From positions 930 through 64,929 of the forward strand of contig JACROF010000003.1 in NCBI GenBank assembly GCA_016214555.1: 64,000 nucleotides of DNA, read 5' to 3'. Below the pieces are notes generated by a model. It saw only the letters and a list, made by a program, of their open reading frames with translations, did no database searches and was not told the origin of the DNA. The stretch comes from Candidatus Levyibacteriota bacterium (lineage in GTDB: Bacteria > Patescibacteriota > Microgenomatia > Levybacterales > UBA12049). Made by a program: the position numbers and the translations under genes. This document shows positions 23,744 through 46,553 of the stretch, one piece after another; position 1 is the first letter of the stretch; the number at the start of each line of letters is the position of its first letter.

Positions 23744-23754
23744 CCGGGGTTTTT
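23730..23754 (+). terminator. Rho-independent terminator
   Basis: CCCCGGC-TTCATA-GCCGGGG followed by T5. The stop codon sits in the loop. Confidence 0.7.
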
Positions 23755-23861
23755 CTTATAAGCGCACTATGGGATTGTTCTATCACAATCATTTCGCTAT
23801 AATACATACTGTTCTCAGGCAAATCACCTTGAGCTCATTTAGCACATTTAAAGGAGGAGAT

Positions 23862-24275: not shown

Positions 24276-24290
24276 CTATATCCACTCATG

Positions 24291-24318
24291 CGGTGGCCAT
24301 CAGGCCACCGCTTTTTTT
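24291..24318 (+). terminator. Rho-independent terminator
   Basis: CGGTGGCC-ATCA-GGCCACCG followed by T7. Confidence 0.75.
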
Positions 24319-24750: not shown

Positions 24751-26076
24751 ATGTCAGATCAGACAGGAGCCCTTCAGATTCCCGTTGTCGGAACCGGCAC
24801 TCTAGCAGTTCCACCGCAACCACAGGGATCAGCCAGCTCCGCCCTCATGCAGACGGGAAATACAGCAACAGAGCGAAAGCAGCTCATCTGCAAGGACATC
24901 CTCAGGGCATTAAGCCCCGAAAGATTCCAACAAGCCACGGTCGTTGCCCAAGCCGACTACCCCAATATGCTGGTAAACAGCCAGATCGGTATGGTATACG
25001 GCTCTGAAGCGATCGCCGCCATGAACGCACTCGTCAGTTCGATGCGCACCAGAGTCACTCCGGTAGAAATACCGCAGCTTGACAAGATGATGGCTGCGAT
25101 CAACGATGAGATGCGCAGCTTCCGCGGCCACTACGACACCAGCAAGGACCCCGAACTTCGCGAGAAATACGAAAAAGCGATGGGCGGGATCAAGAAGCTA
25201 TTCAACCGAGGCAAGACCTACATGGAAATGCTCCATGAAGATATGCAATCCTCGGTCGAAAGGCTCGATGGCATCAAGGCAGAGCTACTTGCTAAGCAAG
25301 CTCAGCTCATACGAAATGTCGGCCTCTACGACGAGCTGTATCTGGCAAACGAACAGGAAATCGTCAACGTCATCGAAGCCATCGCACGGATGGAGATGAT
25401 TTGCGATTTGGCAGCTGCAGAAGCAGCTGCAATCGTTGGCGACCCCAACGATCCCGTCAATCACGCCAAGTTCGAGCGGAAACGTTTCATTGCAATATTT
25501 GCCAACAACCTGACGCTCAGGCTCACCGAATTCAAAAACCGCCTATTCGCCGGCTATGCGATGTCACCACAGATCACTCAGTCTCGAGACATCGATACTG
25601 CGATGGCGATGAAACTTTATTCTGTCTGCGATACCACCATCCCTCTCATCGAGTCAACCATGCTTCGATGGCAGATGATGGTCCAGGCAGAACTCGCAGC
25701 CGAAGCCGCAAACGCAGTCGCAAGACTCACCAACGAGGTACTCGTCGCGAATTTCGAAGCCGGAGCGGATATCCTGCCTCGAGTCGCCCAGGCGATTCAA
25801 ACGCCGACGATAACCCCCGAGACCATTTTGGCACTCGGTACAAGTATCGAGAAGCAGACTCAAGGCATCATCGATGCCTACGCTGCCGGACGTGAGCGAC
25901 GCGCAGCAGTCGATGATGCGATCGTAACTACGTACCGTGTCATCCAAAATGCTACGGCCAAGGTGAGCGACGAAGTCGTTGATCAACTGCTTGCGCAAGC
26001 CAACGCACCGCTCCCAGCTGTCATCACTGCGAAGCTTCCCGAGCTTCCAGCAGGTATTGAATCTCAAGCTTCCTAG
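24751..26076 (+). CDS. TelA-like (toxic anion resistance / KlaB family) protein
   Basis: GC is about 55%, well above the window average. An N-terminal Q-x-G...LSS element and a central GLYDELYLANEQEI region resemble B. subtilis TelA (compare DMLDEMYEKNKDYY). Long helical architecture and a strong AAGGAG RBS. Confidence 0.45.
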   Translation: MSDQTGALQIPVVGTGTLAVPPQPQGSASSALMQTGNTATERKQLICKDILRALSPERFQQATVVAQADYPNMLVNSQIGMVYGSEAIAAMNALVSSMRTRVTPVEIPQLDKMMAAINDEMRSFRGHYDTSKDPELREKYEKAMGGIKKLFNRGKTYMEMLHEDMQSSVERLDGIKAELLAKQAQLIRNVGLYDELYLANEQEIVNVIEAIARMEMICDLAAAEAAAIVGDPNDPVNHAKFERKRFIAIFANNLTLRLTEFKNRLFAGYAMSPQITQSRDIDTAMAMKLYSVCDTTIPLIESTMLRWQMMVQAELAAEAANAVARLTNEVLVANFEAGADILPRVAQAIQTPTITPETILALGTSIEKQTQGIIDAYAAGRERRAAVDDAIVTTYRVIQNATAKVSDEVVDQLLAQANAPLPAVITAKLPELPAGIESQAS

Positions 26077-26104
26077 TTCCTAGCAGCGCCTAGGAGATTT
26101 CTAA

Positions 26105-26128
26105 CCCCGGCCAATGGCCGGGGTTTTT
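26105..26128 (+). terminator. Rho-independent terminator (duplicate of the one at 22801)
   Basis: CCCCGGCC-AAT-GGCCGGGG followed by T5. Confidence 0.75.
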
Positions 26129-26154
26129 CTTTGGAAAAACGTTATACTAGATAT

Positions 26155-26286
26155 ATGGGAAACAAGAAAAAAATTATCCCTTTTTTTGAAAAAAATGAAT
26201 TACGAATTATTGCAATAAGTCTGAGTATTTTATCTTTTGGTCTTGCCATCGCATGGATTGGATTCGCGCTCTTTTCCGCAAAATAA
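26155..26286 (+). CDS. Candidate 43-aa single-TM small protein
   Basis: Translates to MGNKKKIIPFFEKNELRIIAISLSILSFGLAIAWIGFALFSAK. Below the ORF-track cutoff and has a weak RBS. Confidence 0.25.
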   Translation: MGNKKKIIPFFEKNELRIIAISLSILSFGLAIAWIGFALFSAK

Positions 26287-26344
26287 TTTTTTAAATTTCT
26301 CTCTTGTTTTTTTGTAAAAAATTATTGATACTTATATCTATTCA

Positions 26345-27763
26345 ATGAAGTATATAGTTATTACTTTTTCCGGTCTTGGTCTCCCCATCGCCTACAAACT
26401 ACATCAGCAAGGATACGAAGTGCATGTTGGTATGGTCCAAAACATCAAGGATTATGTTTTGGAAGAAGAAATATCACGAGCAAAAGAAGGTGAAGAAGAC
26501 AGAAATAAAAGAATGCAACTTTTCCAAGGCATGCTTCCCATTGAGCCTGCAGATAAAGTTATTGAACGGATGAGATCAATCCCCAACCCTCAGGACTACT
26601 TTGTCTTTTTTGATGAAAACTGTCTTTATAGGTGGGTAGATAAAATTCGCGATCTTAACTTTCATGGTAATTTCCCAACAAAAGCAGATTTTTTATTTGA
26701 AGTTGATCGCAAAAGAGCCAAGCAATTTGTTCAGGAACACTACCCCAAACTTAACACCCCTGAGGTACACGAATTCACCAAAATCAAAGATGGTATAAAA
26801 TTTCTCAAAGAAAGCAAAGAACTTTGGGTACTCAAAGGACAAATTGATACCGCTCGAACTTTTGTCCCTGCAGTTGAAGACCCAGGACTTGCCAATACCC
26901 AACTTGCTGAAGTTTTGGCTAATTTTCCTTACAAATATGAGAGGCTGGGATTTATTCTTGAGAGATTTATTCCCGATATCATCGAGCTGACGCCTGAAAA
27001 ATTTTATTACGACGGTGAACCCATTGCTACATCTCTTCTCTTTGAAAACAAACCATTTGGCAGTGGCAATATCTCAGTCCAGACGGGTTGCGCTGAAGAC
27101 CTCTGCTTCCCAACTGATATGAATGACCGCATCAATAAGATTGCTTTCCCACCTATCATTGATGAAATGGCTAAAGAGCATAAAGGGTGGTTTATCTGGG
27201 ATGCCTCAATTCTCATTGGAAAAAGAGATGGAAAAATGTATTTTGGTGAGTTTTGCTCAAATCGGCCAGGTTATAGCAGTTTTTTCAATGAACTCGCACA
27301 ATGCAATAGCGTCAATGGATTTTTTGAAAGCCTTGTCAAAAAGAAAAATCCTTATACACTAGGGACCGTTGGCTGCTCCGTATCAATTTTTAATATGAAC
27401 CGAGATGAAGACACCGATGCAATCTCTTCAAATATTCTTATTAACTACAAGCCTGAAATCGAAAAAGATGTCTGGTTGTGGGACGTAAGACGAAACGAAC
27501 GAAATAATATCGTCACCATAGGTACAGATTGGAATTTAGCCGTCATTACTGGAGCAGGGAAATCAATTCCTCAGGCTGTTAACAGACTCTATAGAAATGT
27601 TGAGAATTTTGCTATTGTTGGATCATACCATCGACCAAAAGACGATTATTTGTCCATGGATTATCAATCATCAATTATCAATAGGATTAACTATGGCCTC
27701 GAGCGAGGCTTGTTTCACATACCATTTGATGTTAAAATCGGCGATATCGACGCAACGGTATGA
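26345..27763 (+). CDS. ATP-grasp superfamily ligase, PurD (glycinamide ribonucleotide synthetase)-like
   Basis: N-terminal pre-ATP-grasp region (MKYIVITFSGLGLPIAYKL), a central region LWVLKGQ...ERFIPDIIELTPE, and a C-terminal YFGEFCSNRPGYSS that aligns with PurD EFNxRFGDPE. Confidence 0.5.
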   Translation: MKYIVITFSGLGLPIAYKLHQQGYEVHVGMVQNIKDYVLEEEISRAKEGEEDRNKRMQLFQGMLPIEPADKVIERMRSIPNPQDYFVFFDENCLYRWVDKIRDLNFHGNFPTKADFLFEVDRKRAKQFVQEHYPKLNTPEVHEFTKIKDGIKFLKESKELWVLKGQIDTARTFVPAVEDPGLANTQLAEVLANFPYKYERLGFILERFIPDIIELTPEKFYYDGEPIATSLLFENKPFGSGNISVQTGCAEDLCFPTDMNDRINKIAFPPIIDEMAKEHKGWFIWDASILIGKRDGKMYFGEFCSNRPGYSSFFNELAQCNSVNGFFESLVKKKNPYTLGTVGCSVSIFNMNRDEDTDAISSNILINYKPEIEKDVWLWDVRRNERNNIVTIGTDWNLAVITGAGKSIPQAVNRLYRNVENFAIVGSYHRPKDDYLSMDYQSSIINRINYGLERGLFHIPFDVKIGDIDATV

Positions 27764-28236
27764 CAAAAAATCGACTTTTGGATTTAAAAAAACTCAAATT
27801 TGAGGTTCGTGACGTCATGCGATATGACGATGCAGGGGATTATTTTGCCAACACGATTGTAGCCTACGACTTCAAAGACGACGTGATCACCAACGCTATT
27901 TTTCTCCACGAATTTATTGAGTATATGCTCATCAAGTCATCGGGTATTGAGCCTGAGCTGATTGACAAACTCGACACTGTTCCCAATGCTGAAAAAGATT
28001 ATCCAAGAGAGTGGAAGCTCTATGAAAAATATCACGATATGGCAAATAGTGTAGAGAGACAATTTATCGAAAATCTTGGCCTCAACTGGGAAGAATATGA
28101 CAAAACAGTCAACACCGCTAAAATCAAAACCGCAGTTCGTCACCTCTCAGATGAGATGCATAAAAAACAAATGGATAAAAAAGATATTACCAAAGCAAAA
28201 AGAATTGTCCGCGCAATCTTTAGAAAAAGAAAATAA
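27760..28236 (+). CDS. Hypothetical protein, translationally coupled to the ATP-grasp gene
   Basis: ATGA start/stop overlap with the upstream gene. Confidence 0.45.
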   Translation: MTKNRLLDLKKLKFEVRDVMRYDDAGDYFANTIVAYDFKDDVITNAIFLHEFIEYMLIKSSGIEPELIDKLDTVPNAEKDYPREWKLYEKYHDMANSVERQFIENLGLNWEEYDKTVNTAKIKTAVRHLSDEMHKKQMDKKDITKAKRIVRAIFRKRK

Positions 28237-28345
28237 TATTCCCTTTCTATCTTATAGTTTTTGAGTTTCTCCTCGCCATTTGCTATAATCCACCTAACGT
28301 GAAAAGGCATGGCACGAGCCATATACCAACCTTTTCATTTGCACC

Positions 28346-28756
28346 TTGAAAGGGAAAGAAATGACTGAGACAGCAAAACGCGGTGACTACGAAGTTGTCG
28401 CCTGTGTTGGCCTTGAGGAAATTGATGATCTCCCCTTCCGGGAGGCTCATCTTATCTGCTTGATTGGCATGTGTAATGGAAGCTGGAATATTACCTATGC
28501 CCGGGATGGCTCATGCTGTATGCGCATAGCTGTCACGAACGATCCTGAACTTTTTACGTATAGCCTCATCAAGAGCGCTGCATTCCTTGCTCAACTTCGC
28601 ATCCACAGTGCGAAATACACAACAGGTGAAAATATCGAACAATCGATCATATCTAGACTCAAGGGGCTTAAAGCTCCTCCGATAGTCTTTGCCAGATATC
28701 TCTGGCAATCAACGACCATGATCATTCGCGGCGTTCGAAACCAAAAGAAAGGTTAG
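28346..28756 (+). CDS. Hypothetical Cys-rich protein
   Basis: ORF with elevated GC; Cys cluster CLIGMCNGSW...GSCCM. Confidence 0.35.
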   Translation: MKGKEMTETAKRGDYEVVACVGLEEIDDLPFREAHLICLIGMCNGSWNITYARDGSCCMRIAVTNDPELFTYSLIKSAAFLAQLRIHSAKYTTGENIEQSIISRLKGLKAPPIVFARYLWQSTTMIIRGVRNQKKG

Positions 28757-28760
28757 ACAA

Positions 28761-29321
28761 ATGGACATTGTAGACATGCTAAAGCACAGTGTGACCATGG
28801 CGTACTTCTCAGAAGTCGCTCCTTGGTTTGCGGCAATTGAAGTTGTCGCACTCGGATTTTTCATTACGATGGCGATCCGCTACAGCATTGAGCCTGAACA
28901 CAAGCTATATTTCCTACCCTACTCAACGTTTTGGGCAGGTATGACGCTTGGATTTGGACTTATTGCGTACTTTGTCTCAAGAGGAACGCAGGACTATCAT
29001 CCAACGCATCACTGGTATGACCAATTCTGGTTCATGCTACTCATCGGTGCCATAGGGATGTTTATTGCCTTGCAAAATTCCTACAACACACAAAGAAACA
29101 CTGGTCGGGATATCTGGACACATAGTGAGTGGTGGTTGTGGCTTGTTGTCGCACCCATACTCACGCCTGTCTTGGTCCGAGGAATTATCGTCCTAGCAAA
29201 GACTGATGGAGCTGCCTCCACTAACTTTGCAGGAGTCATAATCGGCCTGTCTATCTATGTACTGACTCTATCTGTTGATGCTTTGAGATCACCCTCTAAA
29301 GCTTCAACAAAAAAAGAGTAA
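28761..29321 (+). CDS. Polytopic membrane protein, unknown function
   Basis: Five hydrophobic helices; lies 5 nt downstream of the previous ORF. Confidence 0.4.
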   Translation: MDIVDMLKHSVTMAYFSEVAPWFAAIEVVALGFFITMAIRYSIEPEHKLYFLPYSTFWAGMTLGFGLIAYFVSRGTQDYHPTHHWYDQFWFMLLIGAIGMFIALQNSYNTQRNTGRDIWTHSEWWLWLVVAPILTPVLVRGIIVLAKTDGAASTNFAGVIIGLSIYVLTLSVDALRSPSKASTKKE

Positions 29322-37892: not shown

Positions 37893-37894
37893 CA

Positions 37895-37946
37895 AAAAAC
37901 CTCGTCCTCTCTAAAAATAATTTATTTTGCGGCCGAGGTTTTTTTG
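37895..37946 (+). terminator. Terminator-like hairpin after rplL
   Basis: AAAAACCTCG ... CGAGGTTTTTTT enclosing a long loop. Confidence 0.45.
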
Positions 37947-38769
37947 TGGTCATAACGTATACCTTAGGCTGATTTAATAATCTAATCATTTATCCAATAT
38001 TTCTTATTTTAATAAAAAAGATGATCATAAGATTTTAGGCAAGCTCAAAAGACTTGTAAAGAATTGATACTCTAAAAAGACATAAAACTCTCCCAAAAAG
38101 GAAAATACTACACCAATAAGAGGCCACATTGCATAAGAGTCGCTTCGAAAACGCGAAATATAGCCCAATTCCCTCTTTTGAAACAGTGTTTTGACAATTA
38201 TTTTGATTCTGATGTCATATGATGTAGTCATTTTTCGACTTTTTGAACGATTCAAAACATATATACAATTTTTTCACGTCGGATAATATTCTTGTAAGAA
38301 TAAGACCGCGACTTGATCGAACAATTCCCGAATGAGTATAAATATTGTTCTATAGAATAGAACTCATGAAAATTCCAAAAATCCAAAAAAATGATTTTTG
38401 TACCAGCTGCCAAAAAATCCCAATACTTTCATAAAGTTTTGGAAAATTAAGACAAAAATTTCAAAAAAAGAAAAGTTTTCCTGTGGATATCCCCAAATAA
38501 CTCTCTTACTCCAAGCTCCTCCCCTATAGCCTTATAATGGGAGACTATAGGTAAAACAAGAGTTAATAAAATGGCTATAGTAAATTACTGTAGGACTATT
38601 GTCCAATTTCTCCCTTCCAATATAGGATAAGACCCTTTAGATACCTTCTAGGTCATCCTACGCCCTTAAAATATTATTTTGAGGCTAAGAGCTTTTAGTA
38701 TTAATGTTTCTAAAGATATCTTGACCAATAAAAAATTGTGATATATACTACATGTAATACGCGCAATTT

Positions 38770-38796
38770 AGCAGCTCCAAAGAGCTGCTTTTTTTG
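38770..38796 (+). terminator. Orphan rho-independent terminator
   Basis: AGCAGCTC-CAAA-GAGCTGCT followed by T7. A TTGACC-17-TATACT promoter lies at 38720..38748. Confidence 0.55.
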
Positions 38797-39016
38797 TATG
38801 AAAAGCCTTAACTACTCTGATAAAACACATAAAATAAAAATATGAAGATACAAAACGTAACATCCATAAGAAGTGTCAGGTATTTTCGATATAAAGATGT
38901 ACCAAAACTTTTTCTTATTAACCTTTGTGAAAGACCAATAGCAACTCTAAATCTAATAATTTTTCTCATTTGGGTACTTTTGTCAATTATAACCAGCTAA
39001 ACCACCAAACTCCCCC

Positions 39017-39077
39017 TTGACACTAATGTTCTAGTTTGTTACTTTAGTGATAGGTAATTATTACAATGATTACCTAT
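39017..39077 (+). promoter_or_regulatory. Promoter (TTGACA-17-TACTTT) plus a 9-bp-arm inverted repeat operator upstream of the excisionase-type HTH gene
   Basis: ATAGGTAAT-N10-ATTACCTAT at 39050..39077, 18 nt before the ATG. Confidence 0.45.
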
Positions 39078-39094
39078 GAGTTACTCTCCAGGCT

Positions 39095-39310
39095 ATGGCT
39101 GATCAAAAGATATCAATCAACGACCTACCAGATCTACTTACTGTACGAGAAGTTGCAGAAGTTTTACGCGTCTCTCCTCTTACCATCAAACGCTGGGGGA
39201 AAAGGGGTAAATTACCAGCAATTCGTATCAACAGCAGGGGGGACAGGCGCTACAAAAAAGAAGCAGTTTTTTACCTCCTAGGTATTCAGGAAAAAAGTGG
39301 GACTATCTAA
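39095..39310 (+). CDS. Excisionase/MerR-superfamily helix-turn-helix DNA-binding protein
   Basis: LLTVREVAEVLRVSPLTIKRWGKRGKLPAIRI matches the excisionase-family HTH pattern. Confidence 0.6.
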   Translation: MADQKISINDLPDLLTVREVAEVLRVSPLTIKRWGKRGKLPAIRINSRGDRRYKKEAVFYLLGIQEKSGTI

Positions 39311-39385
39311 ATAGATAGAAAGCTAAACCTCATTATTCCTCCATTTTTACTATATCAGACATATTACTAAGATGATCACTTTGCC

Positions 39386-39413
39386 ATAAAAAAAGCCCCG
39401 GCAAAGCCGGGGC
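39386..39413 (-). terminator. Rho-independent terminator for paralog 1
   Basis: GCCCCGGC-AAA-GCCGGGGC with a T-run on the minus strand. Confidence 0.7.
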
Positions 39414-39417
39414 AAAA

Positions 39418-40086
39418 TTACCACATAGAGAAAACCCAACAACCAGGACCAGAAAGCCCTTGTATGTCTTTCACAGACAAAAAGTAGGCAGAGACTGCCT
39501 CTTCTATCCTGCGATAACCCTGCACCTCCTCGATGGTAACATCCTCAGGAGCGCAATAGGTGATGTCAATTGAGTGAACATTGCCATCCTGAAACTCCAG
39601 AGAGCTTCTCAGATCAGTAATAATTTCCTCAGTGAGAGCTGAGGCCCTTTCTTCTGGAAAATAGACCTCAAAGAGCGACTCTGCAAAGACCCTAAAATCC
39701 TCCTCAAGCTGCTCAAGACCGCAGTCGAGAAGACCCACTGCCGGTGCAAAGCACAGCTCCAAATACCCTTCAGAGTTACCCTGCAACATTTCATTGGTGA
39801 TCACGATCAAGTCGCCTGGAAAGACGAGCTGACCATATTGACCGTTGCCAAAACTCAGTGGCTCTTTACCATCAAGCTTTGCCCAAGCAAGGCAGGCAAC
39901 AGACATAGGATTTTCAACAAGAAATTCAAGGGAATTCCCTACATAAAGATCGTGTCCATCGCAAAACGGACAAGACAAAGCCTGGATCTCTTTTCCGCTC
40001 TTTTCAAAACAAAAGACAGAACGACGATCAGCGCTAAGCATCTCAGGTCCTTTTCTACTAAACCAATGCGGGCAATGCTGCCGCAT
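39418..40086 (-). CDS. Paralog 1 of a four-gene family of unknown function, with an N-terminal Cys pair region
   Basis: Shares PGDLIVIT, ITY and a C-terminal GPGCWVFSMW with paralogs 3 and 4. TAGGAGT RBS. Confidence 0.55.
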   Translation of the reverse strand: MRQHCPHWFSRKGPEMLSADRRSVFCFEKSGKEIQALSCPFCDGHDLYVGNSLEFLVENPMSVACLAWAKLDGKEPLSFGNGQYGQLVFPGDLIVITNEMLQGNSEGYLELCFAPAVGLLDCGLEQLEEDFRVFAESLFEVYFPEERASALTEEIITDLRSSLEFQDGNVHSIDITYCAPEDVTIEEVQGYRRIEEAVSAYFLSVKDIQGLSGPGCWVFSMW

Positions 40087-40169
40087 ACTCCTATCAATGC
40101 TAGTTGACAGAGAGCTTTCTAGGCATAAGATTGCCTACAAAGCCCGCTACCATATGTAGCTATAGAAAT

Positions 40170-40197
40170 AGAGCCTAAAGATCACTCTTTAGGCTCT
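40170..40197 (-). terminator. Terminator for paralog 2 (perfect 11-bp stem)
   Basis: AGAGCCTAAAG-atcact-CTTTAGGCTCT. Confidence 0.6.
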
Positions 40198-40208
40198 AAA
40201 GAGAAATA

Positions 40209-40922
40209 CTAACAAACTAATTGAGTCGAATAGAACATCTTGATGATCATATCCTCATCATTGGTAGTCGAGACAAAGCCAGGAATGTTCCTGATGGCAG
40301 AATGCCCACCTGGCCCAACTAAATAGGCAATACCAATGACAACGTCAAACAACCTCTCCTCTTCAGGTTGTTTTTCTAACAAATCAATCATGGTTTTAGG
40401 ATGCATGTAAAAAATACTATATTGAACTTCCTCACCATCATGCAGTCGACATGCATCCTCAATAAGCTGAGGATTCATGTCGCCCAAAAGCGAAAGGCCA
40501 ATTTCATCCTGATTGTCAGCATGACTAAAGAAAAAAGTGAGAGTTCCTGAAAGACCTTCAGAAAATGAAAGGGAGGTAGCTTTGAGCAGCTCAGGATCAA
40601 ATCCTATTACCTCGCCTACTGACAGAATCACCTCAAGATTATCATTAATCAACACCGGACTCTCATCGTGCTCCACTCTCAACGTAACTGGGAAATTGAA
40701 AGGATTCTCAAATATAAATAGTGGAATATCATGCACGACAAAAAAAGGAGCACTTACCAAAGGTGACTTGAATATCTGGTATTCGCTTCCATCATTATCA
40801 TATGACCTCACTGTATAGAGATCCTCACTCGATGGGCTTGTTCCAAGGTGTGGGCTGCTATGAACTAAAATACGTGGAACAGCAAGGAGCGGAGATACTT
40901 GAGATGGAATCCAGTTAAACAT
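40209..40922 (-). CDS. Paralog 2 (divergent) of the same family
   Basis: Shares TFFF and YSIFY...LL blocks with the others. Has its own TTGAGG-18-TATAAT promoter and a GGAGG RBS. Confidence 0.5.
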   Translation of the reverse strand: MFNWIPSQVSPLLAVPRILVHSSPHLGTSPSSEDLYTVRSYDNDGSEYQIFKSPLVSAPFFVVHDIPLFIFENPFNFPVTLRVEHDESPVLINDNLEVILSVGEVIGFDPELLKATSLSFSEGLSGTLTFFFSHADNQDEIGLSLLGDMNPQLIEDACRLHDGEEVQYSIFYMHPKTMIDLLEKQPEEERLFDVVIGIAYLVGPGGHSAIRNIPGFVSTTNDEDMIIKMFYSTQLVC

Positions 40923-41030
40923 AACATCGGCCTCCTTCTTGGTAGACTCTATGCCTCAACTCTTGTTAATGTGCCAAACTGGTTTTTATTATAACAAAAA
41001 GCTGTTTGACACCTCAACTATAGGATCGGT

Positions 41031-41060
41031 AAAAGAAAACCCGACCCTAAAAGGGCCGGG
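41031..41060 (-). terminator. Terminator for paralog 3
   Basis: CCCGACCC-TAAAA-GGGCCGGG hairpin with a T-run on the minus strand. Confidence 0.6.
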
Positions 41061-41066
41061 TAGTAA

Positions 41067-41651
41067 TTACAGCTCATGAAGTTCTGAAATGAGCGGGGCG
41101 ATTGCAGCTGCAAAATCATTGCGAAGCTTGGCTAGATACAACTCGTTAAGATATGTAATCGTCACATCAACTGAGTCGTATATCCCTTCGTGGAAATGAG
41201 CTGCAATGAACACTTTCGCACCCGCAGCCGGATCATCAACTGTGCCTGTCAGAGCAAAACACTGCTCGATATGCCTCTCTGCCACCTCAAGGGCACTTTC
41301 GAAATCTTCCCTGTTGATCCGAGGTCGGAATGAAAAAGTCACATCCCCGTGGTAGTATCCTCGTTGACCAGACTCTGGAACAAGCTGCTCGCTTAGCACT
41401 CCTACAATCGCATGTGGAGCGATATCTTCATATTTTTCAACTTCGGTTCCATTATGAAGAACCACTACATCTGTTTGATGCTTCTTGATAGGATTTGGCA
41501 ATGCAAGAGTAGGCGTCTGGCCAGGTGGTACAATGACAACTAGTCTCGAACCGACTTCTACGTCTGGAATAACGAGAACATCCCTACTCTCCCCATCCAC
41601 TTCAGCAATAATGCCTAACGTATCAAAAACATCTCCATCGACACTGATCAT
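41067..41651 (-). CDS. Paralog 3
   Basis: Aligns with paralog 4 across its length (VDGESRDVLVIPD, LHNG, VTFSFRPRINREDFESALEVA, VDVTITYL). AGGAG RBS. Confidence 0.6.
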   Translation of the reverse strand: MISVDGDVFDTLGIIAEVDGESRDVLVIPDVEVGSRLVVIVPPGQTPTLALPNPIKKHQTDVVVLHNGTEVEKYEDIAPHAIVGVLSEQLVPESGQRGYYHGDVTFSFRPRINREDFESALEVAERHIEQCFALTGTVDDPAAGAKVFIAAHFHEGIYDSVDVTITYLNELYLAKLRNDFAAAIAPLISELHEL

Positions 41652-41675
41652 GAACTTCTCCTCTTTTGATCTTTA

Positions 41676-41696
41676 TCAGATCGGACATCGATCTGA
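41676..41696 (-). promoter_or_regulatory. Palindromic operator-like element in the paralog-3 5' region
   Basis: TCAGATCG-GACAT-CGATCTGA, between a TTTATAAG (-10-like) element and the RBS. Confidence 0.45.
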
Positions 41697-41740
41697 CACC
41701 TTCTTATAAATGAGCCTGATGATGATAGCATATTTTTAAC

Positions 41741-41781
41741 AAAAAACCAAAAAAAATCCCGACCCCATGGTGGGATCGGGA
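41741..41781 (-). terminator. Terminator for paralog 4
   Basis: TCCCGACCCCA-TGG-TGGGATCGGGA with a T-run on the minus strand. Shares a 25-nt block with 42546..42570. Confidence 0.65.
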
Positions 41782-41788
41782 CGCAAAA

Positions 41789-42439
41789 TTACCAAACAAA
41801 CATGGAAGCGGGACCAGTAAAGCTAAAAGGCGGATCGCCTGGTAGCTTGAGTTTTTCTTTGAGAAGCTTTACATACTCTTCGTATGTGAGATATGTTACC
41901 TCGATGCTTATGCCATAGACCTCAACTTCACAAATACGCTTGATTTCCTGTTTTAGATCTATGAGGTGTAAGACACCAAGGGTCTCGTAATATGACTCAA
42001 GAGCAGCCTCAAGAATCGTATGCTGACGAGAAAGTGCTGCTTCGTTGACATGAGGCTTAAACGTGAAAAGAATCTTCCCTGAGTAGGGATTTTTACTCTC
42101 GCCACTTGATCGCTTGTCTTTCATAAGCATCCCAGGAGTAATCACAACTATATCTCCCGGGGTGACACTCTCTCTCTCAAAAATCACAATGCCATTATGT
42201 CTTACCTCAACACTACAAGTCTTGAGCGTTGGATTGAAAAGCTCAATTTCTGGAACCTCTTGATCTCCTACAATAATTGCAGGCATCTGACTCGGAGGCT
42301 TGTCTGGATCAAGACAAAGAATTGCTACTTCCTCACCCCCAACCGTCGCACCTATGGTGATGAGCCGCTGACAGAGAGCCAGAAATGGCAATCCATTTGC
42401 CTTAAGATATTCACCCTGTTCATAAGGAGACATCAACAT
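41789..42439 (-). CDS. Paralog 4
   Basis: The start is trimmed to the ATG at 42437..42439, which has a GGAGG RBS; the ORF-track start (42451) is a TTG. Carries the family motifs PGDIVVITPGML and a C-terminal GPASMFVW. Confidence 0.6.
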   Translation of the reverse strand: MLMSPYEQGEYLKANGLPFLALCQRLITIGATVGGEEVAILCLDPDKPPSQMPAIIVGDQEVPEIELFNPTLKTCSVEVRHNGIVIFERESVTPGDIVVITPGMLMKDKRSSGESKNPYSGKILFTFKPHVNEAALSRQHTILEAALESYYETLGVLHLIDLKQEIKRICEVEVYGISIEVTYLTYEEYVKLLKEKLKLPGDPPFSFTGPASMFVW

Positions 42440-42463
42440 GATTTCCTCCAATACGCTGCTATA

Positions 42464-42484
42464 TCAGATCGACAATCGACCTGA
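42464..42484 (-). promoter_or_regulatory. Second copy of the palindromic operator-like element
   Basis: TCAGATCGA-CAA-TCGACCTGA, preceded (minus-strand sense) by GCTCATTTACAATG (-10-like). Confidence 0.45.
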
Positions 42485-42550
42485 ATCATTGTAAATGAGC
42501 TTGGAAAGTATAACATAATATTACTATAAGTTAAAGTTTAGATAAAAAAC

Positions 42551-42605
42551 CAAAAAAAATCCCGACCCCCTTTCGAGGGCCGGGTGCGTCCCGATATATC
42601 GGGAC
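42551..42605 (-). terminator. Tandem hairpin terminator
   Basis: A 10-bp stem with a GAAA tetraloop (CCCGGCCCTC-GAAA-GGGGGTCGGG on the minus strand) followed by T8, plus the perfect palindrome GTCCCGATA|TATCGGGAC. Confidence 0.7.
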
Positions 42606-42616
42606 AGAAATGCAAG

Positions 42617-42838
42617 TTAGTCGTCGTCGCCGAAATCATCGCCATCATGGCGATCCGGCTGCCAAGCCCCAGAGCGCGGCTTGTTGCGATACAACCAAGC
42701 GTTTCTGCAGACTTCAAGCTGAAGAGAGTCACCGCGTTGACGAAGCTGCCTGAGGGCATCTTCGTGCGCGCTCCTTGACATCCGAATGTAATCATCCTCT
42801 GTGAGAGAATGACCACTGTTGAACGAATGCAAGTCCAT
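42617..42838 (-). CDS. Small protein with an acidic C-terminal tail; GC-rich (about 60%)
   Basis: ATG with an AAGGGGGAAG RBS and a strong terminator. No recognisable family. Confidence 0.4.
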   Translation of the reverse strand: MDLHSFNSGHSLTEDDYIRMSRSAHEDALRQLRQRGDSLQLEVCRNAWLYRNKPRSGAWQPDRHDGDDFGDDD

Positions 42839-42872
42839 ACTTCCCCCTTTTTGGGCTAGATCGACACGGAGA

Positions 42873-43070
42873 CTACGGCTTCATCGCCGCCTCAGCGGCA
42901 CGCTGGTAGTTTGGAAACCAGATCGTACCGGCGTAGCTTTCCAAAGCCGTTTTGATCAGGCTCGGATTGCTCCGGAAAGTCTCAACAAGAGAGGCGAATG
43001 CCTCGCTTGGTTTCATTCGCCTGGTCCTTCTTCCAGACGTGCGACATGAAAAACCTTTATCGATCCTCAT
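42873..43070 (-). CDS. Possible small ORF in the GC-rich segment
   Basis: ORF only. Overlapping ORFs on both strands make the coding assignment here unreliable. Confidence 0.2.
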   Translation of the reverse strand: MRIDKGFSCRTSGRRTRRMKPSEAFASLVETFRSNPSLIKTALESYAGTIWFPNYQRAAEAAMKP

Positions 43071-43118
43071 ATCCCCTCCTGCTTTTTACTTGCACCGTTG
43101 CAAGCCTGCAAAAAGAAG

Positions 43119-43148
43119 AGCCAGGGAGCGCAGAAGCGCTCCCTGGCT
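43119..43148 (-). terminator. Perfect 13-bp hairpin
   Basis: AGCCAGGGAGCGC-AGAA-GCGCTCCCTGGCT with a T-rich tract on the minus strand. Confidence 0.4.
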
Positions 43149-43863
43149 GTAACCGCTACTTGCGGCCGGAAGACTGCGACGTCTGAGACTGCGGCGAACT
43201 ACCGCTCGCTGCCGCATTTGCTGCGGCAAGCATTCGCCCTTCGGCGATTCGATCGAGCCTGATCTGTCCGCGTCCGATTGGACGCAGGCCAAACGGCGAC
43301 TGATCCCGAACGGAATGATAGCTCTGTCCAGACATATGTCCTCCTCGTCACGCTGCAGTGGACTCCCAGTGGAGACCACGCCCTCAAGACTACTGTGCTA
43401 GCCACGAAGTTTGTTGCTCCGTGAGCCTACCCAAAATAGCCTCATTACTCCCTGAAAAGAATATGTCTGCGTTTGGGTCATTAAAAACCCAGTCGCGAAA
43501 TGAATCGCGCATCACAGACTCCGCCTCATCCGGCGGTGGCAATCCTCTTATCGTGACAATATTGTCTAAAAAAAGAATGTTTTGCCCTCCTTTCTGGACA
43601 AAGAGAAAGCGTTGGTGTCGTTGGTCAGCAGGTGAACAATAGACCTTTCGGACTTATTGATGCAAAAAATTATGCTGAGCTGACCAACGACCACAAAACC
43701 TGAACCATCAGGACTTATGGTCGCTGATCAGACAAACCAACAGACGACTAATTTGTAAAAGAACTCTTATGAATTCCTTATTTCATAACTCTCTAAAGAG
43801 AGCTTTGAAATAAGGGCGGTCCGACGAATCGGACACGCCCAAGAATAGAGCTGAAGCCTTGTA

Positions 43864-44358
43864 TCAGCAATGAATCACAACGACACTCTCAGTGGTGAGT
43901 AGCCTGATAGGCTCCCGAAGCTGATGAGCTGCCGTGGTAACGATGAACGTCACCTGACGAACATGCTTTGTTACCCGAATCTCAGGCAAAACACGCTCGT
44001 TTTCCAAAAGCAAGACGTCTTCAGTGACCGTCACGGTGAACACCGCGACCTCATGGTTGCTCTCGACTCGAATCGGAATTCCGTTGAACACCCTGGGTTC
44101 TCGCGGTCGAGCATAGCCCGTATCAGGAATGATACCAGAGCCGTGCTTGTCAATTACGACGAAGACCGATTGGTCTCGAACATTCCAAACGCCAATCGCG
44201 TGCAGCTGATCCCTAGGGACCGTGACTAGATAGATTTCCTCGTTAGCATTGTTTGGATCATCGATGGGAATCATCGCTCTCGGCGATCCTTCGCCTTGAG
44301 CAAAAAAGATTCCAATCGAGACTCCGTTATCAGAACGATTACTAAACCCGGAGGACAT
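43864..44358 (-). CDS. Hypothetical protein in the GC-rich segment
   Basis: ORF followed on the minus strand by a roughly 10-bp hairpin at about 43811..43838. Confidence 0.35.
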   Translation of the reverse strand: MSSGFSNRSDNGVSIGIFFAQGEGSPRAMIPIDDPNNANEEIYLVTVPRDQLHAIGVWNVRDQSVFVVIDKHGSGIIPDTGYARPREPRVFNGIPIRVESNHEVAVFTVTVTEDVLLLENERVLPEIRVTKHVRQVTFIVTTAAHQLREPIRLLTTESVVVIHC

Positions 44359-44604
44359 ACCAGTGCTCCCTTCGTTGCTACAAACAAGGTGGCTAACGCC
44401 CTTTTGGACAGATCAAAAGGCCATTAGCCATATATTCAGAACTATTAATGTGCAATTACAGCACAAGCTGTAAATAGGTCGTAAGTATAGCATATTTTAT
44501 ATCTAAAATCAACTATAGGATGTTTGCCGAGAGGCATTTGAGCTCACTTCCAAAGGGAAATGAAGTCCAAATGACCTCCCGGCTTGCCTCATTTGAGGCT
44601 GCTA

Positions 44605-45459
44605 CTAAAAGGTAGCATGAGAAAAAAATGCGCCATCAGCGCCATCAAGATTGTTGTGAGCGTGAGTTCGTCGCAACTTTAACACTTTGCCTACATAGGC
44701 GATTTGTTGCCGCACGAGCAAAAAGGTATGTAGGTCCTTACAAGAACTCAGACCTTTCTGTGCAGCCGCACTGAAGACCCTAAGATCTGCGGTGGTGCGA
44801 CCTCTCAAGCAAAGCTTTTCCTGATCGCTCAGCTCAGGAAGACGCCCTCCCTTCAGGTGGTAAAGGAAAGCCTGTGCTCCAAGACTTGAGGCATACACGA
44901 TCGTATTCGATCGTTGAGGCTGATCCACCACACCATCAGCAATCAACTCGCCAATGAGGTCGTTGGTTGTGAGGCCAAGGTACGAACGCGCATTGGCCTC
45001 AGAGCCCAAGATAGCACAAAGTCGGGAATTCCGACCTTCAATACCTTCCAGGCTCTCGCTCTGGAGAAGACGAACTATCTCCCCCGGATACGAAATGAGG
45101 TTGCAAAAACCAAGACTATAGCTACCAAGGTCTCCAAGGGAGACCTGAGAGCATCGATCCGGGCTGCAAAGAGCAAAACGATGTGTTCCCTTTTGAGGAA
45201 CGTATGTCGGCGAACATGGTGCACTTGCCGACGATTGCTTCCCCAACGCTGCGCTATTTTGGAAGCACAAAGCTGCGCCCCCAGATTTTTTCACGTCAAC
45301 TATGACAACCGGACTTCGACGAGGATTTGACACCTCCCATACCGAAAGCCCGTTGAGTGTTTCATGGTGTTTTGCCTCCCCTGATGCGAACCGAATGTCT
45401 ACTCCGGGTACCAAACAGTTCATTTTTCCACCTTTCAGGACGGATAAGCCTCCCGTCAA
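44605..45459 (-). CDS. Hypothetical protein in the GC-rich segment
   Basis: 284-aa ORF at about 55% GC with no recognisable motif. Confidence 0.35.
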   Translation of the reverse strand: MTGGLSVLKGGKMNCLVPGVDIRFASGEAKHHETLNGLSVWEVSNPRRSPVVIVDVKKSGGAALCFQNSAALGKQSSASAPCSPTYVPQKGTHRFALCSPDRCSQVSLGDLGSYSLGFCNLISYPGEIVRLLQSESLEGIEGRNSRLCAILGSEANARSYLGLTTNDLIGELIADGVVDQPQRSNTIVYASSLGAQAFLYHLKGGRLPELSDQEKLCLRGRTTADLRVFSAAAQKGLSSCKDLHTFLLVRQQIAYVGKVLKLRRTHAHNNLDGADGAFFSHATF

Positions 45460-45671
45460 ACAGTCTAGCTCAGAAATTTCTTTTTCTGAAAACTCCTTTC
45501 TCTATAAAAGTGAGCTGACTGTCGACTCGCTCTCTACAAAATAAAGAGGGAGCCAACAACCAGATACACAAAACTGTTCTCAAGGCATTCTTTTTGTATT
45601 AATGTGCTAAAGGATAGTGATTGTAAAACAAAAATCAAGCCTACGTCAACAGATGCCTTGTGTGAGACACA

Positions 45672-46553
45672 CTAAACAGTCCTGTGATATTCGGCTTGAT
45701 GATCTTTAATAATGCTATCAACATCGGGATTGTTCATATGAGTTTTGATAAATGCCAATGTCTCTTTCGGATTTTGAGTGTTCACAAAAACATTAGTTCC
45801 TACTTCAAATCCACCTAACGTCTTTTGACGAGGAATGATCCTTAGATACCAATCTCCTCCCGGATAAATATAAAAATTATAAGGAAAATCGCTATTGTAA
45901 CGAAGGTTAAAAATAGTAATAAGTGATGAGAGGACACCTGCAGCATCTGAAAGCTCGTCATCCGTGACCTCTCCAAATAATCTACCCGACTTTTTAGGAG
46001 CGATCCACACTTCATCTGGCCATACCGAATCAGATGGACAAAAAACGCTAAAATGCTGTGACTGATAACCGGTCGGCATATCATGTACCACTGTTTGAAG
46101 TCGAGGAATATCTAAATAAACCTTTTCAGGAATCACTGCAATTTGCGTATGAGAATGAGGAATACTCTCTCCTGCTTTTTCTCCGTGATTGTGAAAAATA
46201 TATACCTGACCTGCGTGACTATGCTCATTATAGCGATGGCGATATGTCTGGAGTATTCGCTGTGTATGCTCAACGGGAAAAGCGTCAAAGGACACATGGT
46301 GATCTGGAGTATCAATCACTAATTCATGAATTGGCGCAAAAGGAAATTTATTGGGAACAACGCGTACTTCCCATGCATCATCTCCAGTCTTCCCTCCAAT
46401 CCGATAGAGTTCTGTTTCATTACTTTCCCTACCAGGACAAAAAGGACACGCAGGCTCAGTTCCGTTGGCGACATCGGGTCTTTTTGCTCTTCTAGGGGCT
46501 GAGATCACCCATTTTTTAGATTGCTGATTTTTTAGAAATTGAAACTCGTCCAT
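45672..46553 (-). CDS. galT: Galactose-1-phosphate uridylyltransferase (HIT superfamily)
   Basis: CPFCPG zinc motif and the HxH active site IPHSHTQI. Confidence 0.75.
   Translation of the reverse strand: MDEFQFLKNQQSKKWVISAPRRAKRPDVANGTEPACPFCPGRESNETELYRIGGKTGDDAWEVRVVPNKFPFAPIHELVIDTPDHHVSFDAFPVEHTQRILQTYRHRYNEHSHAGQVYIFHNHGEKAGESIPHSHTQIAVIPEKVYLDIPRLQTVVHDMPTGYQSQHFSVFCPSDSVWPDEVWIAPKKSGRLFGEVTDDELSDAAGVLSSLITIFNLRYNSDFPYNFYIYPGGDWYLRIIPRQKTLGGFEVGTNVFVNTQNPKETLAFIKTHMNNPDVDSIIKDHQAEYHRTV

What the first reader, a model, noticed from the sequence alone, without database searches (positions are those of the whole stretch)
42551..45600. Approximately 3-kb compositionally foreign block (55-60% GC) embedded in a 37% GC genome
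GC rises abruptly at 42.55 kb and falls again before galT. ORFs overlap on both strands, which is typical of high-GC DNA, so the gene calls are uncertain. The minus-strand ORFs with an RBS or a terminator are the most credible:
- 42617..42838, a small acidic-tailed protein
- 43864..44358
- 44605..45459

The block is physically tied to the AT-rich paralog array by a shared 25-nt terminator-flank sequence, so it is not a chimeric join. The donor would be a high-GC organism. If the host is an epibiotic CPR bacterium, its high-GC partner is a candidate, but that is speculation.
Basis: partly seen in the sequence, partly recalled or inferred. Interest (0 to 1): 0.55.

Follow-up and report, generated by a model that had tools for sequence, protein, structure and literature searches.

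The report
Fast-evolving GC-rich orphan-gene island
The GC-rich 3 kb stretch is real and correctly assembled, but it is an old, rapidly evolving cluster of six orphan genes that related Levybacteria carry at the same variable spot, not fresh DNA from a GC-rich donor.

Summary
The block is real. 42551-45600 has 49.9% GC against about 39% elsewhere, not 55-60% against 37%. It is the most GC-rich 3 kb in the window and has the most deviant tetranucleotide signature.

It is not a misassembly. A second assembler gives identical sequence, and both junctions recur in three other datasets.

It holds six minus-strand genes (272, 164, about 62, 59, 65 and 73 aa). Most have Shine-Dalgarno sites, and there are sigma-70-like promoters and intrinsic terminators. 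Five of the six show purifying selection in orthologue comparisons.

Together with the four-paralogue array it forms a 6.4 kb island (39311-45671). The island sits between a galT-like gene and a highly conserved HTH_17 gene next to rplL, a site that holds 0-6.4 kb of differing content across about 45 Levybacteria loci.

Orthologous islands in relatives carry the same genes with the same raised GC3, although synonymous sites of flanking core genes are saturated. The raised GC is therefore maintained, not a decaying transfer signature.

No homologue was found outside Levybacteria. There is no integrase, phage or defence match.

The genes evolve about five times faster than their neighbours and are mosaic between lineages, which points to gene-sized recombination. 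Intergenic regulatory RNA hairpins are better conserved than the proteins.

Function and the cause of the high GC remain unknown.

The parts
44605..45459 (-). p284 gene. The ORF opens at TTG 45459. The likely start is ATG 45423, which gives the 272-aa product that NCBI calls HZC02_01700.
   Evidence: ORF and RBS (GAAAGGTGGAAAAATG). The NCBI protein P0001 was found. Orthologues are 48-49% identical in L002 and L003 and 24% in L005. dN/dS is 0.21 for the L002-L003 pair. No Pfam, PHROG, PADLOC or NCBIfam hit.
45620..45649 (-). Promoter-like site upstream of p284 (TTGACG, 18 nt spacer, TACAAT)
   Evidence: Consensus scan, 10 of 12 positions matched. The galT-p284 spacer aligns with L002 and L004.
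44359..44604 (-). Intergenic control region between p284 and p164. It holds a long terminator-like hairpin, a promoter (TTGATT, 17 nt spacer, TG-TATACT, 44512-44484) and a 5'UTR hairpin at 44429-44391. About 40 nt of that hairpin region are invariant in all three lineages.
   Evidence: RNA folding z of -9.5 on the minus strand and -8.1 on the plus strand. Promoter scan. Alignment and consensus fold. Nucleotide identity is 74-86% here, against about 50% in the flanking coding sequences.
43864..44358 (-). p164 gene (164 aa, HZC02_01695). Predicted to be all-beta.
   Evidence: Homologues P0008 (53%) and P0009 (47%) were the only ones found. dN/dS is 0.26-0.33. The AlphaFold model has pLDDT 56 and pTM 0.58 and consists of strands. 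No meaningful PDB fold match.
43778..43841 (-). p164 terminator hairpin (43841-43814) followed by a second conserved hairpin (43813-43778)
   Evidence: Seen in the sequence. The second hairpin has 16 pairs, 3 of them with compensatory changes, and 97.9% of cells are paired.
43585..43733 (-). Structured leader upstream of the p62-p59 genes. It contains a 24-pair hairpin X:Y (43733-43678), a downstream segment Z (43629-43617) that is perfectly complementary to Y and so offers an alternative pairing, and a hairpin that sequesters the Shine-Dalgarno sequence GAAAGGAGG (43606-43585).
   Evidence: Minus-strand folding z of -5.4 to -9.9. In the three hairpins, 8 pairs changed on both sides against 0-2 in slid controls, and 97% of cells are paired. 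Y:Z forms 13 of 13 pairs with one compensatory change. The same variable position covaries in X, Y and Z. No Rfam match.
43390..43578 (-). p62 (called p50 in the notes). A small acidic protein. It probably starts at ATT 43578, seven bases after the conserved GAAAGGAGG. The first canonical start is TTG 43542.
   Evidence: The peptide LPxPDEAES...ADIFFSG is conserved in L002 and L003. Reading frame shown. pN/pS is 0.58, but an antisense frame gives 0.55, so the coding strand is not settled by this test. The ORF also holds hairpins with compensatory changes.
43156..43335 (-). p59 gene (59 aa) with a GAGGAGG ribosome-binding site
   Evidence: The core PFGLRPxGxGxIxL..AEGRM is conserved. This frame has the lowest pN/pS (0.30) and no stop codons.
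43119..43148 (-). Intrinsic terminator after p59 (13-bp stem with 10 GC pairs, then a T tract)
   Evidence: A hairpin sits at the same place in L002 and L003 with a different stem sequence.
42873..43070 (-). p65 gene (65 aa, basic N-terminus, AGGAGG ribosome-binding site)
   Evidence: SEAFASLVETFR is conserved. A distant homologue occurs in L010. pN/pS is 0.41-0.48 in this frame with no stops.
42617..42838 (-). p73 gene (73 aa) with the conserved acidic tail QPDRHD[GD][DE]DFG
   Evidence: pN/pS is 0.56-0.57, the lowest of the six frames.
42561..42584 (-). Intrinsic terminator after p73. It marks the low-coordinate edge of the GC-rich block and is homologous to the terminator after paralogue 1.
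   Evidence: (repeat D1). Conserved in L002 and L003.
39418..42439 (-). Array of four divergent paralogues: 42439..41789, 41651..41067, 40922..40209 and 40086..39418. Each has its own promoter, 5'UTR hairpin and terminator. This is the other half of the same island.
   Evidence: Orthologues in L003 are 35-38% identical with dN/dS of 0.24-0.38. A distant relative occurs in L009.
39095..39310 (+). HTH_17/MerR-like gene. It is the conserved right flank of the variable site and is not part of the island.
   Evidence: Pfam PF12728, E = 1.8e-10. It is 80-97% identical across Levybacteria and is present whether or not an island is there.
45672..46553 (-). galT-like gene. It is the conserved left flank of the variable site.
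   Evidence: Pfam hits GalP_UDP_transf and DUF4931_N, both weak. It is 84% identical in L002 and L004 with dN/dS of 0.03-0.07.

Best explanation
The block is the GC-richest half of a 6.4 kb lineage-specific flexible genomic island (39311-45671). The island sits at a conserved variable site of Levybacteria, between the convergent 3' ends of a galT-like gene and an HTH_17 gene next to rplL-rplJ.

**Shown**
- The block holds six minus-strand genes. The island as a whole is organised as short transcription units with sigma-70-like promoters (several with an extended -10), strong Shine-Dalgarno sites and intrinsic terminators.
- Five of the six block genes are protein-coding under relaxed purifying selection.
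- The island is resident and old. Relatives carry orthologous islands with the same gene order and the same raised GC3.
- Its proteins diverge about five times faster than neighbouring core proteins.
- Different genes give different lineage relationships, so gene-sized segments have been exchanged by recombination. The better-conserved intergenic control regions lie at the breakpoints.
- The intergenic regions carry conserved RNA hairpins, including a leader upstream of the p62-p59 genes.

**Inferred**
- The leader's alternative pairings and sequestered ribosome-binding site would gate expression of the p62-p59 genes.
- The raised GC is a locally maintained state and not a decaying transfer signature. 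It could be kept up by recombination-associated GC-biased gene conversion, by selection for structured, stable transcripts, or by both.
- The products serve an interaction or conflict function (phage, host or stress). This rests on their rapid evolution, allele shuffling and lineage restriction, and on the PIN toxins and a KGG stress protein found at the same site in other lineages. This last step is a guess, at about 0.3.
For: **Assembly.** The Logan contig from SRR12113407 is 100% identical over 33864-54358. The galT|p284 junction recurs in L002, L004 and L005, and the p73|paralogue junction recurs in L003.

**Hotspot.** In about 45 Levybacteria loci, galT and HTH_17-rplL are separated by 9 nt to 6.4 kb of differing content.

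**Genes are real.** RBS and terminators are present. Peptides are conserved. dN/dS is 0.1-0.5. The called frame has the lowest pN/pS for p59, p65 and p73.

**Fast evolution.** galT is 84% identical between lineages, p284 is 48%, p164 is 47-54% and the paralogues are 35-38%.

**Mosaicism.** L002-L003 nucleotide identity is about 0.9 in p284, 0.5-0.6 in p164, 0.96-1.0 in the leader and p50, and 0.55-0.58 in p59. In p59 the window-L002 identity is 0.8.

**Stable GC3 offset.** p284 has GC3 of 0.44-0.47, p164 0.52-0.61 and p65 0.61-0.67, against 0.30-0.35 for galT in the same genomes. This holds despite galT dS of 1.5-2.3.

**Same site in other clades.** Islands there are also GC-raised: L009 0.48 against 0.39, L011 0.52 against 0.42, L019 0.49 against 0.42, L025 0.49 against 0.42.

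**RNA structure.** Folding z is -11.75 for 42845-43560 on the minus strand. By my tally of the windows, mean z is about -3 in the block and about 0 in the galT region. Compensatory pairs are reported.

Against: - No function is established. There is no Pfam, PHROG, PADLOC, NCBIfam or PDB match, and the structure models are poor (pLDDT 56).
- By my recollection the GC3 shifts reported for gene conversion in bacteria are a few percentage points. Here the offset is 15-35 points, so gene conversion alone is probably not enough.
- Only three sequences, which amount to two effective lineages in the leader, support the RNA structures.
- Allele divergence could have accumulated outside Levybacteria chromosomes. 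That would weaken the argument that the high GC is at equilibrium.
- The coding strand of p62/p50 is not resolved.
- Mosaicism is inferred from identity profiles of three sequences. No formal recombination test was run.
Confidence: 0.72

Rival explanations
1. Repeated import from an external, GC-richer gene pool. The candidates are an unsampled phage, plasmid or other mobile element of Levybacteria, or a partner organism. Alleles would diverge at high GC in that reservoir and be dropped repeatedly into this site by recombination through the conserved flanks and intergenic regions.
For: - GC3 is 15-35 points above core genes in every lineage.
- The tetranucleotide signature is deviant.
- Gene-sized mosaic segments are present.
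- Unrelated GC-rich orphan genes sit at the same site in other clades.
- Gene families can occur at either GC level. The p65 homologue in L010 has GC3 of 0.26, and the paralogue homologue in L009 has 0.61.
Against: - No homologue in IMG/VR or PHROGs, and no nucleotide-level match among GenBank phage records.
- No homologue outside Levybacteria among 1.84 billion representative proteins for p284.
- No integrase, att site or tRNA at the borders.
- The control regions are AT-rich, host-like and shared with the neighbouring array.
Confidence: 0.2
2. One reading: a recent horizontal transfer of a 3 kb block from a high-GC organism, possibly the host of an epibiotic CPR bacterium.
For: Atypical GC, GC3 and tetranucleotide usage with sharp borders. 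Genomic islands and gene transfer are reported as common in Patescibacteria (PMC12455944).
Against: - Orthologous, syntenic and equally GC-rich blocks occur in lineages whose core genes are saturated at synonymous sites.
- No donor homologues were found.
- The terminator, promoter and UTR unit is shared with the adjacent lower-GC paralogue array.
- There are no mobility genes.
Confidence: 0.05
3. The central 42.85-43.86 kb is mainly a locus for structured non-coding RNA, and the small ORFs there are incidental open frames in GC-rich sequence.
For: - Folding z of -11.75.
- Hairpins with compensatory changes lie inside the p50 ORF.
- GC is flat across the three codon positions in p59.
- p50 lacks a canonical start, and its antisense frame is equally open and equally constrained.
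- Synonymous divergence is low in p50 and p59.
Against: - p59, p65 and p73 have conserved Shine-Dalgarno sequences and ATG starts.
- Their peptides are conserved.
- The called frame alone combines zero stops with the lowest pN/pS.
- No Rfam family matches.
- The strongest structures lie in the untranslated leaders and terminators, not in the ORFs.
Confidence: 0.08
4. Assembly chimera or contaminant sequence joined into a Levybacteria contig.
For: An abrupt compositional change in a metagenome-assembled genome.
Against: Two assemblies give identical sequence. Both junctions are reproduced in assemblies from three other datasets. Regulatory repeats span the border.
Confidence: 0.01

Closest known systems
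Flexible (replacement-type) genomic islands at conserved hotspots between core genes
   Same: - Conserved flanking core genes (galT-like, HTH_17-rplL).
- Content differs between related genomes, from nothing to 6.4 kb.
- Mostly orphan genes.
- Alleles are mosaic between lineages.
- Composition differs from the core genome.
   Different: - The GC deviation is upward and stable across lineages. It is not the usual AT-rich signature of accessory DNA.
- There are no glycosyltransferase, surface or defence genes that would explain the diversification.
- The intergenic control regions are more conserved than the genes.
Classical horizontally acquired genomic island or integrative element
   Same: Atypical GC and oligonucleotide usage, sharp borders, hypothetical genes, and an adjacent excisionase-like HTH_17 gene.
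   Different: - No integrase, tRNA target or convincing direct repeats.
- The HTH_17 gene is present in genomes without any island.
- The block is orthologous in relatives.
- No donor homologues.
Leader RNAs with alternative hairpins and Shine-Dalgarno sequestration (attenuators, riboswitch expression platforms, RNA thermometers)
   Same: Three mutually complementary segments (X, Y, Z) lie upstream of a hairpin that pairs with the ribosome-binding site. Compensatory changes keep both pairings possible.
   Different: - No match to any Rfam family.
- No identified ligand, leader peptide or aptamer.
- Known from only two effective lineages.
- The switching behaviour is inferred and has not been shown.
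GC-biased gene conversion in recombining bacterial genes (Lassalle et al. 2015, PMC4450053)
   Same: Raised GC3 coincides with evidence of recombination, and codon-usage selection for AT-ending codons plays no role.
   Different: The effect here, 15-35 GC3 points, is much larger than the shifts I recall being reported for bacteria. No polarised substitution data are available.

Membership tests
   GC is 49.9% against 39%. GC3 is 0.47-0.61 against about 0.28. Tetranucleotide correlation with the rest of the window is r = 0.21.
   The same genes in the same order occur in L002/L008, L003 and L004, where galT is 84% identical. Partial versions occur in L005, L009 and L010.
   The exhaustive search with p284 and the word-based search with p164 found only relatives in Levybacteria-type loci. 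The small proteins and the paralogues were tested only against fetched loci, JGI contigs and IMG/VR.
   GC3 of orthologues is nearly the same in three or four lineages, although core-gene dS exceeds 1.5. This is indirect, because substitutions could not be polarised.
Flexible genomic island at a conserved hotspot | Conserved core genes flank a segment whose content varies between related genomes | tested here: met
   The layout galT -> [9 nt to 6.4 kb] <- HTH_17 <- rplL <- rplJ holds across the Levybacteria loci.
Flexible genomic island at a conserved hotspot | Allelic replacement or mosaicism within the island | tested here: met
   The identity profile switches at gene boundaries. Per-gene distances are incongruent. 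No formal recombination test was run.
Prophage or integrative mobile element | Integrase or recombinase, att repeats, phage or mobility genes | tested here: not met
   No such Pfam family within 10 kb on either side. No significant PHROG hit among block genes. No IMG/VR or GenBank phage match. The only flanking repeat is 27 nt at 78% identity, and one copy is not conserved in L003.
Known anti-phage defence system | Match to a PADLOC model | tested here: not met
   No families at E <= 0.1 for any of the 10 island proteins.
Known structured RNA family (Rfam) | Covariance-model match at or near the gathering score | tested here: not met
   Only tRNAs elsewhere in the window reach the gathering score. 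The best hit in the block is Termite-leu at 24.8 bits, against a threshold of 51.
Assembly artefact or contaminant | Junctions unsupported outside this assembly | tested here: not met
   An identical Logan contig exists. The junctions are reproduced in GCA_964457465.1, SRR29948352 and SRR20074301. Read depth could not be tested with these tools.
PixA/AidA inclusion-body protein family (paralogue array only) | Significant sequence or profile match | tested here: inconclusive
   The profile of 8 paralogues hits PDB entry 4lzk at E = 0.18 and 14 bits. The single paralogue sequences do not hit Pfam PixA.

The most novel reading that the evidence does not exclude
Levybacteria keep a dedicated variable site next to rplL. 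Orphan-gene cassettes there are held at a GC3 that is 15-35 points above the genome's mutational equilibrium, across lineages that are saturated at synonymous sites.

This would imply a strong local GC-raising force that has not been characterised. Candidates are unusually intense biased gene conversion at a recombination hotspot, or selection for highly structured transcripts.

The site would also carry new cis-regulatory RNA elements: an X/Y/Z alternative-pairing leader with a sequestered ribosome-binding site, and a 5'UTR hairpin with about 40 invariant nucleotides. These would control new families of small proteins.
Probability: 0.25. Interest if true: 0.65.

Novelty: new member of a known kind. 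Interest (0 to 1): 0.4.

Why it matters
**Method.** An abrupt GC jump in a CPR genome need not mean contamination or recent transfer. Comparison with relatives here turned a "foreign block" into a resident, rapidly evolving island.

**Biology.** The locus gives a defined, comparable site in Levybacteria, with conserved flanks. It can be used to study how streamlined epibiont genomes generate and exchange orphan genes. It also poses the question of why composition can stay far from the genomic equilibrium.

**New elements.** It adds six new protein families, four of them under 75 aa, and two candidate regulatory RNA elements that are in no database.

**If the GC maintenance is confirmed.** It would be an unusually strong case of local base-composition control in a bacterium.

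Tried and rejected
- **Rfam.** Gathering-threshold and E-value scans of the block, and of the AT-rich spacer at 37.8-39.15 kb, found nothing meaningful.
- **Protein family libraries.** Pfam, PHROGs, PADLOC and NCBIfam on all island proteins gave nothing significant.
- **Phage DNA.** blastn against GenBank phages found no match.
- **Concatenated query.** A concatenated query of five proteins returned nothing, not even the query's own 164-aa member, so that search is void.
- **Public contig scans.** JGI metagenome contigs were scanned with the p164 and p65 alignments, and IMG/VR with the p164 and p284 alignments. None found a relative. The paralogue alignment was too divergent to scan with.
- **PDB profile searches.** Nothing significant. 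The weak PixA lead has E = 0.18.
- **p164 as a fifth paralogue.** Rejected by jackhmmer and hhalign.
- **Integron-like cassette array.** Considered and rejected. Each unit has its own promoter, the 3' hairpins are ordinary T-tailed terminators, and there is no integrase.
- **Flanking direct repeats as att sites.** The 27-nt pair at 38692 and 45590 was judged to be chance.
- **Island nucleotide similarity to more distant Levybacteria loci.** None found.


Full report
**Observation**

The window has 39.7% GC. The stretch 42551-45600 has 49.9% GC. That is the maximum of all 3 kb windows (mean 39.7%, sd 3.0%). Its tetranucleotide z-score profile correlates with the rest of the window at r = 0.21, against 0.45-0.75 for most segments.

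GC rises at about 42.55 kb and falls at about 45.45 kb. The figure of 55-60% holds only for 300-nt peaks at 42.65-43.4 kb. Inside the block, intergenic stretches fall to 0.41-0.42.

GC3 of the block's ORFs is 0.47-0.61. Core genes have about 0.28, and the neighbouring paralogue array has 0.37-0.45.

**Source and assembly**

The genes are annotated in a Candidatus Levybacteria MAG with locus tags HZC02_01670-01705, on a 131 kb contig. An independent Logan assembly of SRR12113407 is 100% identical over 33864-54358.

Both borders of the block recur in other datasets:
- galT|p284 appears in L002/L008 (GCA_964457465.1), L004 (SRR20074301) and L005.
- p73|paralogue appears in L003 (SRR29948352).

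Together with D2 and D5 it shows that a whole unit of terminator, promoter and 5'UTR hairpin is duplicated on both sides of the border. Misassembly and contamination are excluded as far as sequence comparison allows.

**Anatomy**

All genes lie on the minus strand:
- **p284.** The likely start is ATG 45423, giving 272 aa. A TTGACG-18-TACAAT promoter lies upstream.
- **A long hairpin**, then a TTGATT-17-TGnTATACT promoter and a roughly 110-nt 5'UTR.
- **p164** (44358..43864).
- **A terminator** followed by a second hairpin.
- **A structured leader.**
- **p62.** A conserved GAAAGGAGG is followed by ATT at 43578. The first canonical start is TTG 43542.
- **p59**, with a GAGGAGG ribosome-binding site and a 13-bp terminator at 43148-43119.
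- **p65**, with an AGGAGG ribosome-binding site.
- **p73**, with the terminator at 42584-42561.

Four paralogue genes follow, each with its own promoter, 5'UTR palindrome and terminator.

Three small genes were missed.

**Are they genes?**

The orthologues in L002 and L003 conserve the peptides. dN/dS is 0.1-0.5 for every gene.

For p59, p65 and p73, only the called frame combines zero stop codons with the lowest pN/pS of the six frames. For p62/p50, the sense frame and one antisense frame are equally open and equally constrained, so its coding strand stays open.

**Comparative context**

I scanned one genome per species with a galT alignment, then ran tblastn with the island and flanking proteins. 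This shows a conserved layout in Levybacteria: galT -> variable segment <- HTH_17 <- rplL <- rplJ.

- In L013, L017, L027, L028, L036 and L040, galT abuts HTH_17 with only 9-210 nt between them.
- Other loci hold 1.1-5 kb. The window holds 6.4 kb.
- Content is specific to each clade.

The window's families occur in full only in the closest group. Traces occur further out:
- p284 has a relative in L005 at 24% identity.
- p65 has a relative in L010.
- The paralogues have a relative in L009.

Most of these segments are GC-raised relative to their own flanks, by 4-15 points. They consist of orphan genes, with occasional PIN toxins, a KGG stress protein and a DUF218 protein. The island is therefore 39311-45671, and the block is its GC-richest half.

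**Why this is not a recent transfer**

- The flanking galT and MscL genes are 81-84% identical between the window and L002/L004, with dS of 1.5-2.3, which is saturated.
- Over that same distance the island genes keep almost the same GC3. p284 has 0.47/0.45/0.44, p164 has 0.54/0.61/0.52, p65 has 0.61/0.67/0.61 and p73 has 0.58/0.60/0.54. galT has 0.30-0.35.
- In L005 the offset also holds: 0.65-0.67 against 0.43.
- A foreign signature should have decayed over more than one substitution per synonymous site.
- No donor is visible. The exhaustive HMMER scan with p284 returned only the query itself, P0010, P0011 and a spurious repeat protein. p164 has only two relatives. JGI contigs and IMG/VR gave nothing.
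- No integrase, tRNA or convincing att repeat flanks the island.
- The HTH_17 gene is a fixed chromosomal gene, present with or without an island.

**Fast evolution and mosaicism**

Where galT is 84% identical, p284 is 48%, p164 is 47-54%, p65 is 51-54%, p73 is about 40% and the paralogues are 35-38%.

Distances are incongruent between genes:
- L002 and L003 are 86% identical in p284.
- They are 53% identical in p164.
- They are 96% identical in p50, with dS of 0.
- They are 47% identical in p59, while the window and L002 are 81% identical there.

An 80-nt sliding identity profile shows sharp switches at gene boundaries. Intergenic control regions are more conserved than coding regions. This fits gene-sized allele replacement by homologous recombination, with conserved intergenic sequences at the breakpoints. 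No formal recombination test was possible with three sequences.

**RNA structure**

The minus strand of 42845-43560 folds with z = -11.75. The plus strand gives -6.8.

In 160-nt windows the strongest signals lie at:
- 43560-43960, with z down to -9.9 on the minus strand only.
- 44440-44680, with z of -9.5.

The galT region scores about 0.

In the alignment of three lineages, three hairpins are 97% paired. They are the hairpin after the p164 terminator, the 24-pair X:Y hairpin and an anti-SD:SD hairpin. Eight of their pairs changed on both sides, against 0-2 in slid controls.

Segment Y is also perfectly complementary to a downstream segment Z, with 13 of 13 pairs. The one variable position of Y covaries with its partners in both X and Z. 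This suggests a leader with alternative pairings that controls access to the p62 ribosome-binding site. It rests on two effective lineages and remains a hypothesis.

The p164 5'UTR carries a hairpin at 44429-44391 with about 40 invariant nucleotides, next to coding sequence that is only about 50% conserved.

**Function**

No function could be assigned.
- The family libraries, PDB sequence profiles and fold search gave nothing reliable.
- The models suggest that p164 is all-beta and that p284 has a beta N-terminal part and a helical C-terminal part, at low confidence.
- By inspection of their sequences, p59, p65 and p73 look charged, low in complexity and probably partly disordered.
- A weak profile hit of the paralogues to a PixA inclusion-body protein (E = 0.18) is not significant.

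The proteins evolve rapidly, their alleles are shuffled and they are restricted to one lineage. At the same site other lineages carry PIN toxins. On those grounds I guess a conflict or interaction role, at about 0.3.

**Cause of the raised GC**

This is unresolved. Three options remain:
- Recombination-associated GC-biased gene conversion, a process documented in bacteria (PMC4450053). By my recollection its reported effects are far smaller than the offset seen here.
- Selection for structured transcripts.
- Continued import from an unsampled GC-richer pool.

GC is not a fixed property of the families. The p65 homologue in L010 has GC3 of 0.26, and the paralogue homologue in L009 has 0.61.

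**Verdict**

This is a genuine, correctly assembled, compositionally atypical block. It is best described as part of an old, recombining, lineage-specific orphan-gene island at a conserved hotspot.

The "foreign DNA from a high-GC donor" reading is not supported. Genomic islands are already reported as common in Patescibacteria (PMC12455944).

Interest is moderate. The island type is ordinary. The stable GC offset and the conserved regulatory RNAs are unusual.

Noticed in passing
window 22700-29300, especially 24751-26076: A second GC-rich accessory stretch. A TelA-like gene (Pfam PF05816) has 54% GC and GC3 of 0.61, and its neighbours have GC3 of 0.41-0.48. The window 23051-26100 is the second most GC-rich 3 kb in the sequence (0.48).
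   Followed up: partly
window 39095-39310 (+): A 71-aa HTH_17/MerR-like (excisionase-type) protein is 80-97% identical across Levybacteria, in genomes where ribosomal protein L10 is only 50-76% identical. It always lies next to rplL, with or without an island. That is unusually strong conservation for a small DNA-binding protein.
   Followed up: partly
window 37893-39094: A 1.2 kb AT-rich (about 30% GC) spacer between rplL and the HTH_17 gene, with no ORF longer than 76 aa. The part at 38207-38598 is 78% identical to L003, and no Rfam family matches. The HTH_17-rplL spacing also varies between Levybacteria, from 0.1 to 5 kb.
   Followed up: partly
window 43358-43642 (+) and 43390-43578 (-): The p50/p62 region is open on both strands in all three lineages, with similar pN/pS on each. 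The minus-strand ORF seems to start at ATT after a conserved GAAAGGAGG. It contains three hairpins, two of them with compensatory changes that alter the encoded amino acids.
   Followed up: partly
window 41671-41696 and 42459-42484; also 44512-44522 and 41015-41027: The 5'UTRs of paralogues 1 and 2 share a palindrome, TCAGrTCGA-N3-5-TCGATCTGA. The p164 and paralogue-3 promoters share CCTATAGTTGA overlapping the -35 element. These may be operator sites.
   Followed up: no
L019 3457-3693 and 3730-4056; L025 12027-12482; L049 11415-11789: In other Levybacteria the same galT/HTH_17 site carries a KGG-repeat stress protein and PIN-domain toxins. The PIN genes have host-like low GC3 (0.28) and sit among GC-rich orphan genes.
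   Followed up: partly
L010 4045-4392 and L009 11068-11820: GC level is not tied to gene family. The p65 homologue in L010 has GC3 of 0.26, against 0.61 in the window. The paralogue homologue in L009 has GC3 of 0.61, against 0.37-0.45 in the window.
   Followed up: no
window 38692-38718 and 45590-45616: A 27-nt direct repeat at 78% identity brackets the island together with the HTH_17 gene. The 38.7 kb copy lies in a stretch that does not align with L003, so it is probably a chance match.
   Followed up: partly
window 39418-42439 (paralogue array): A profile of eight paralogues gives a weak, non-significant match (E = 0.18) to a PixA inclusion-body protein (PDB 4lzk). From memory, that family also occurs as tandem paralogues.
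   Followed up: partly
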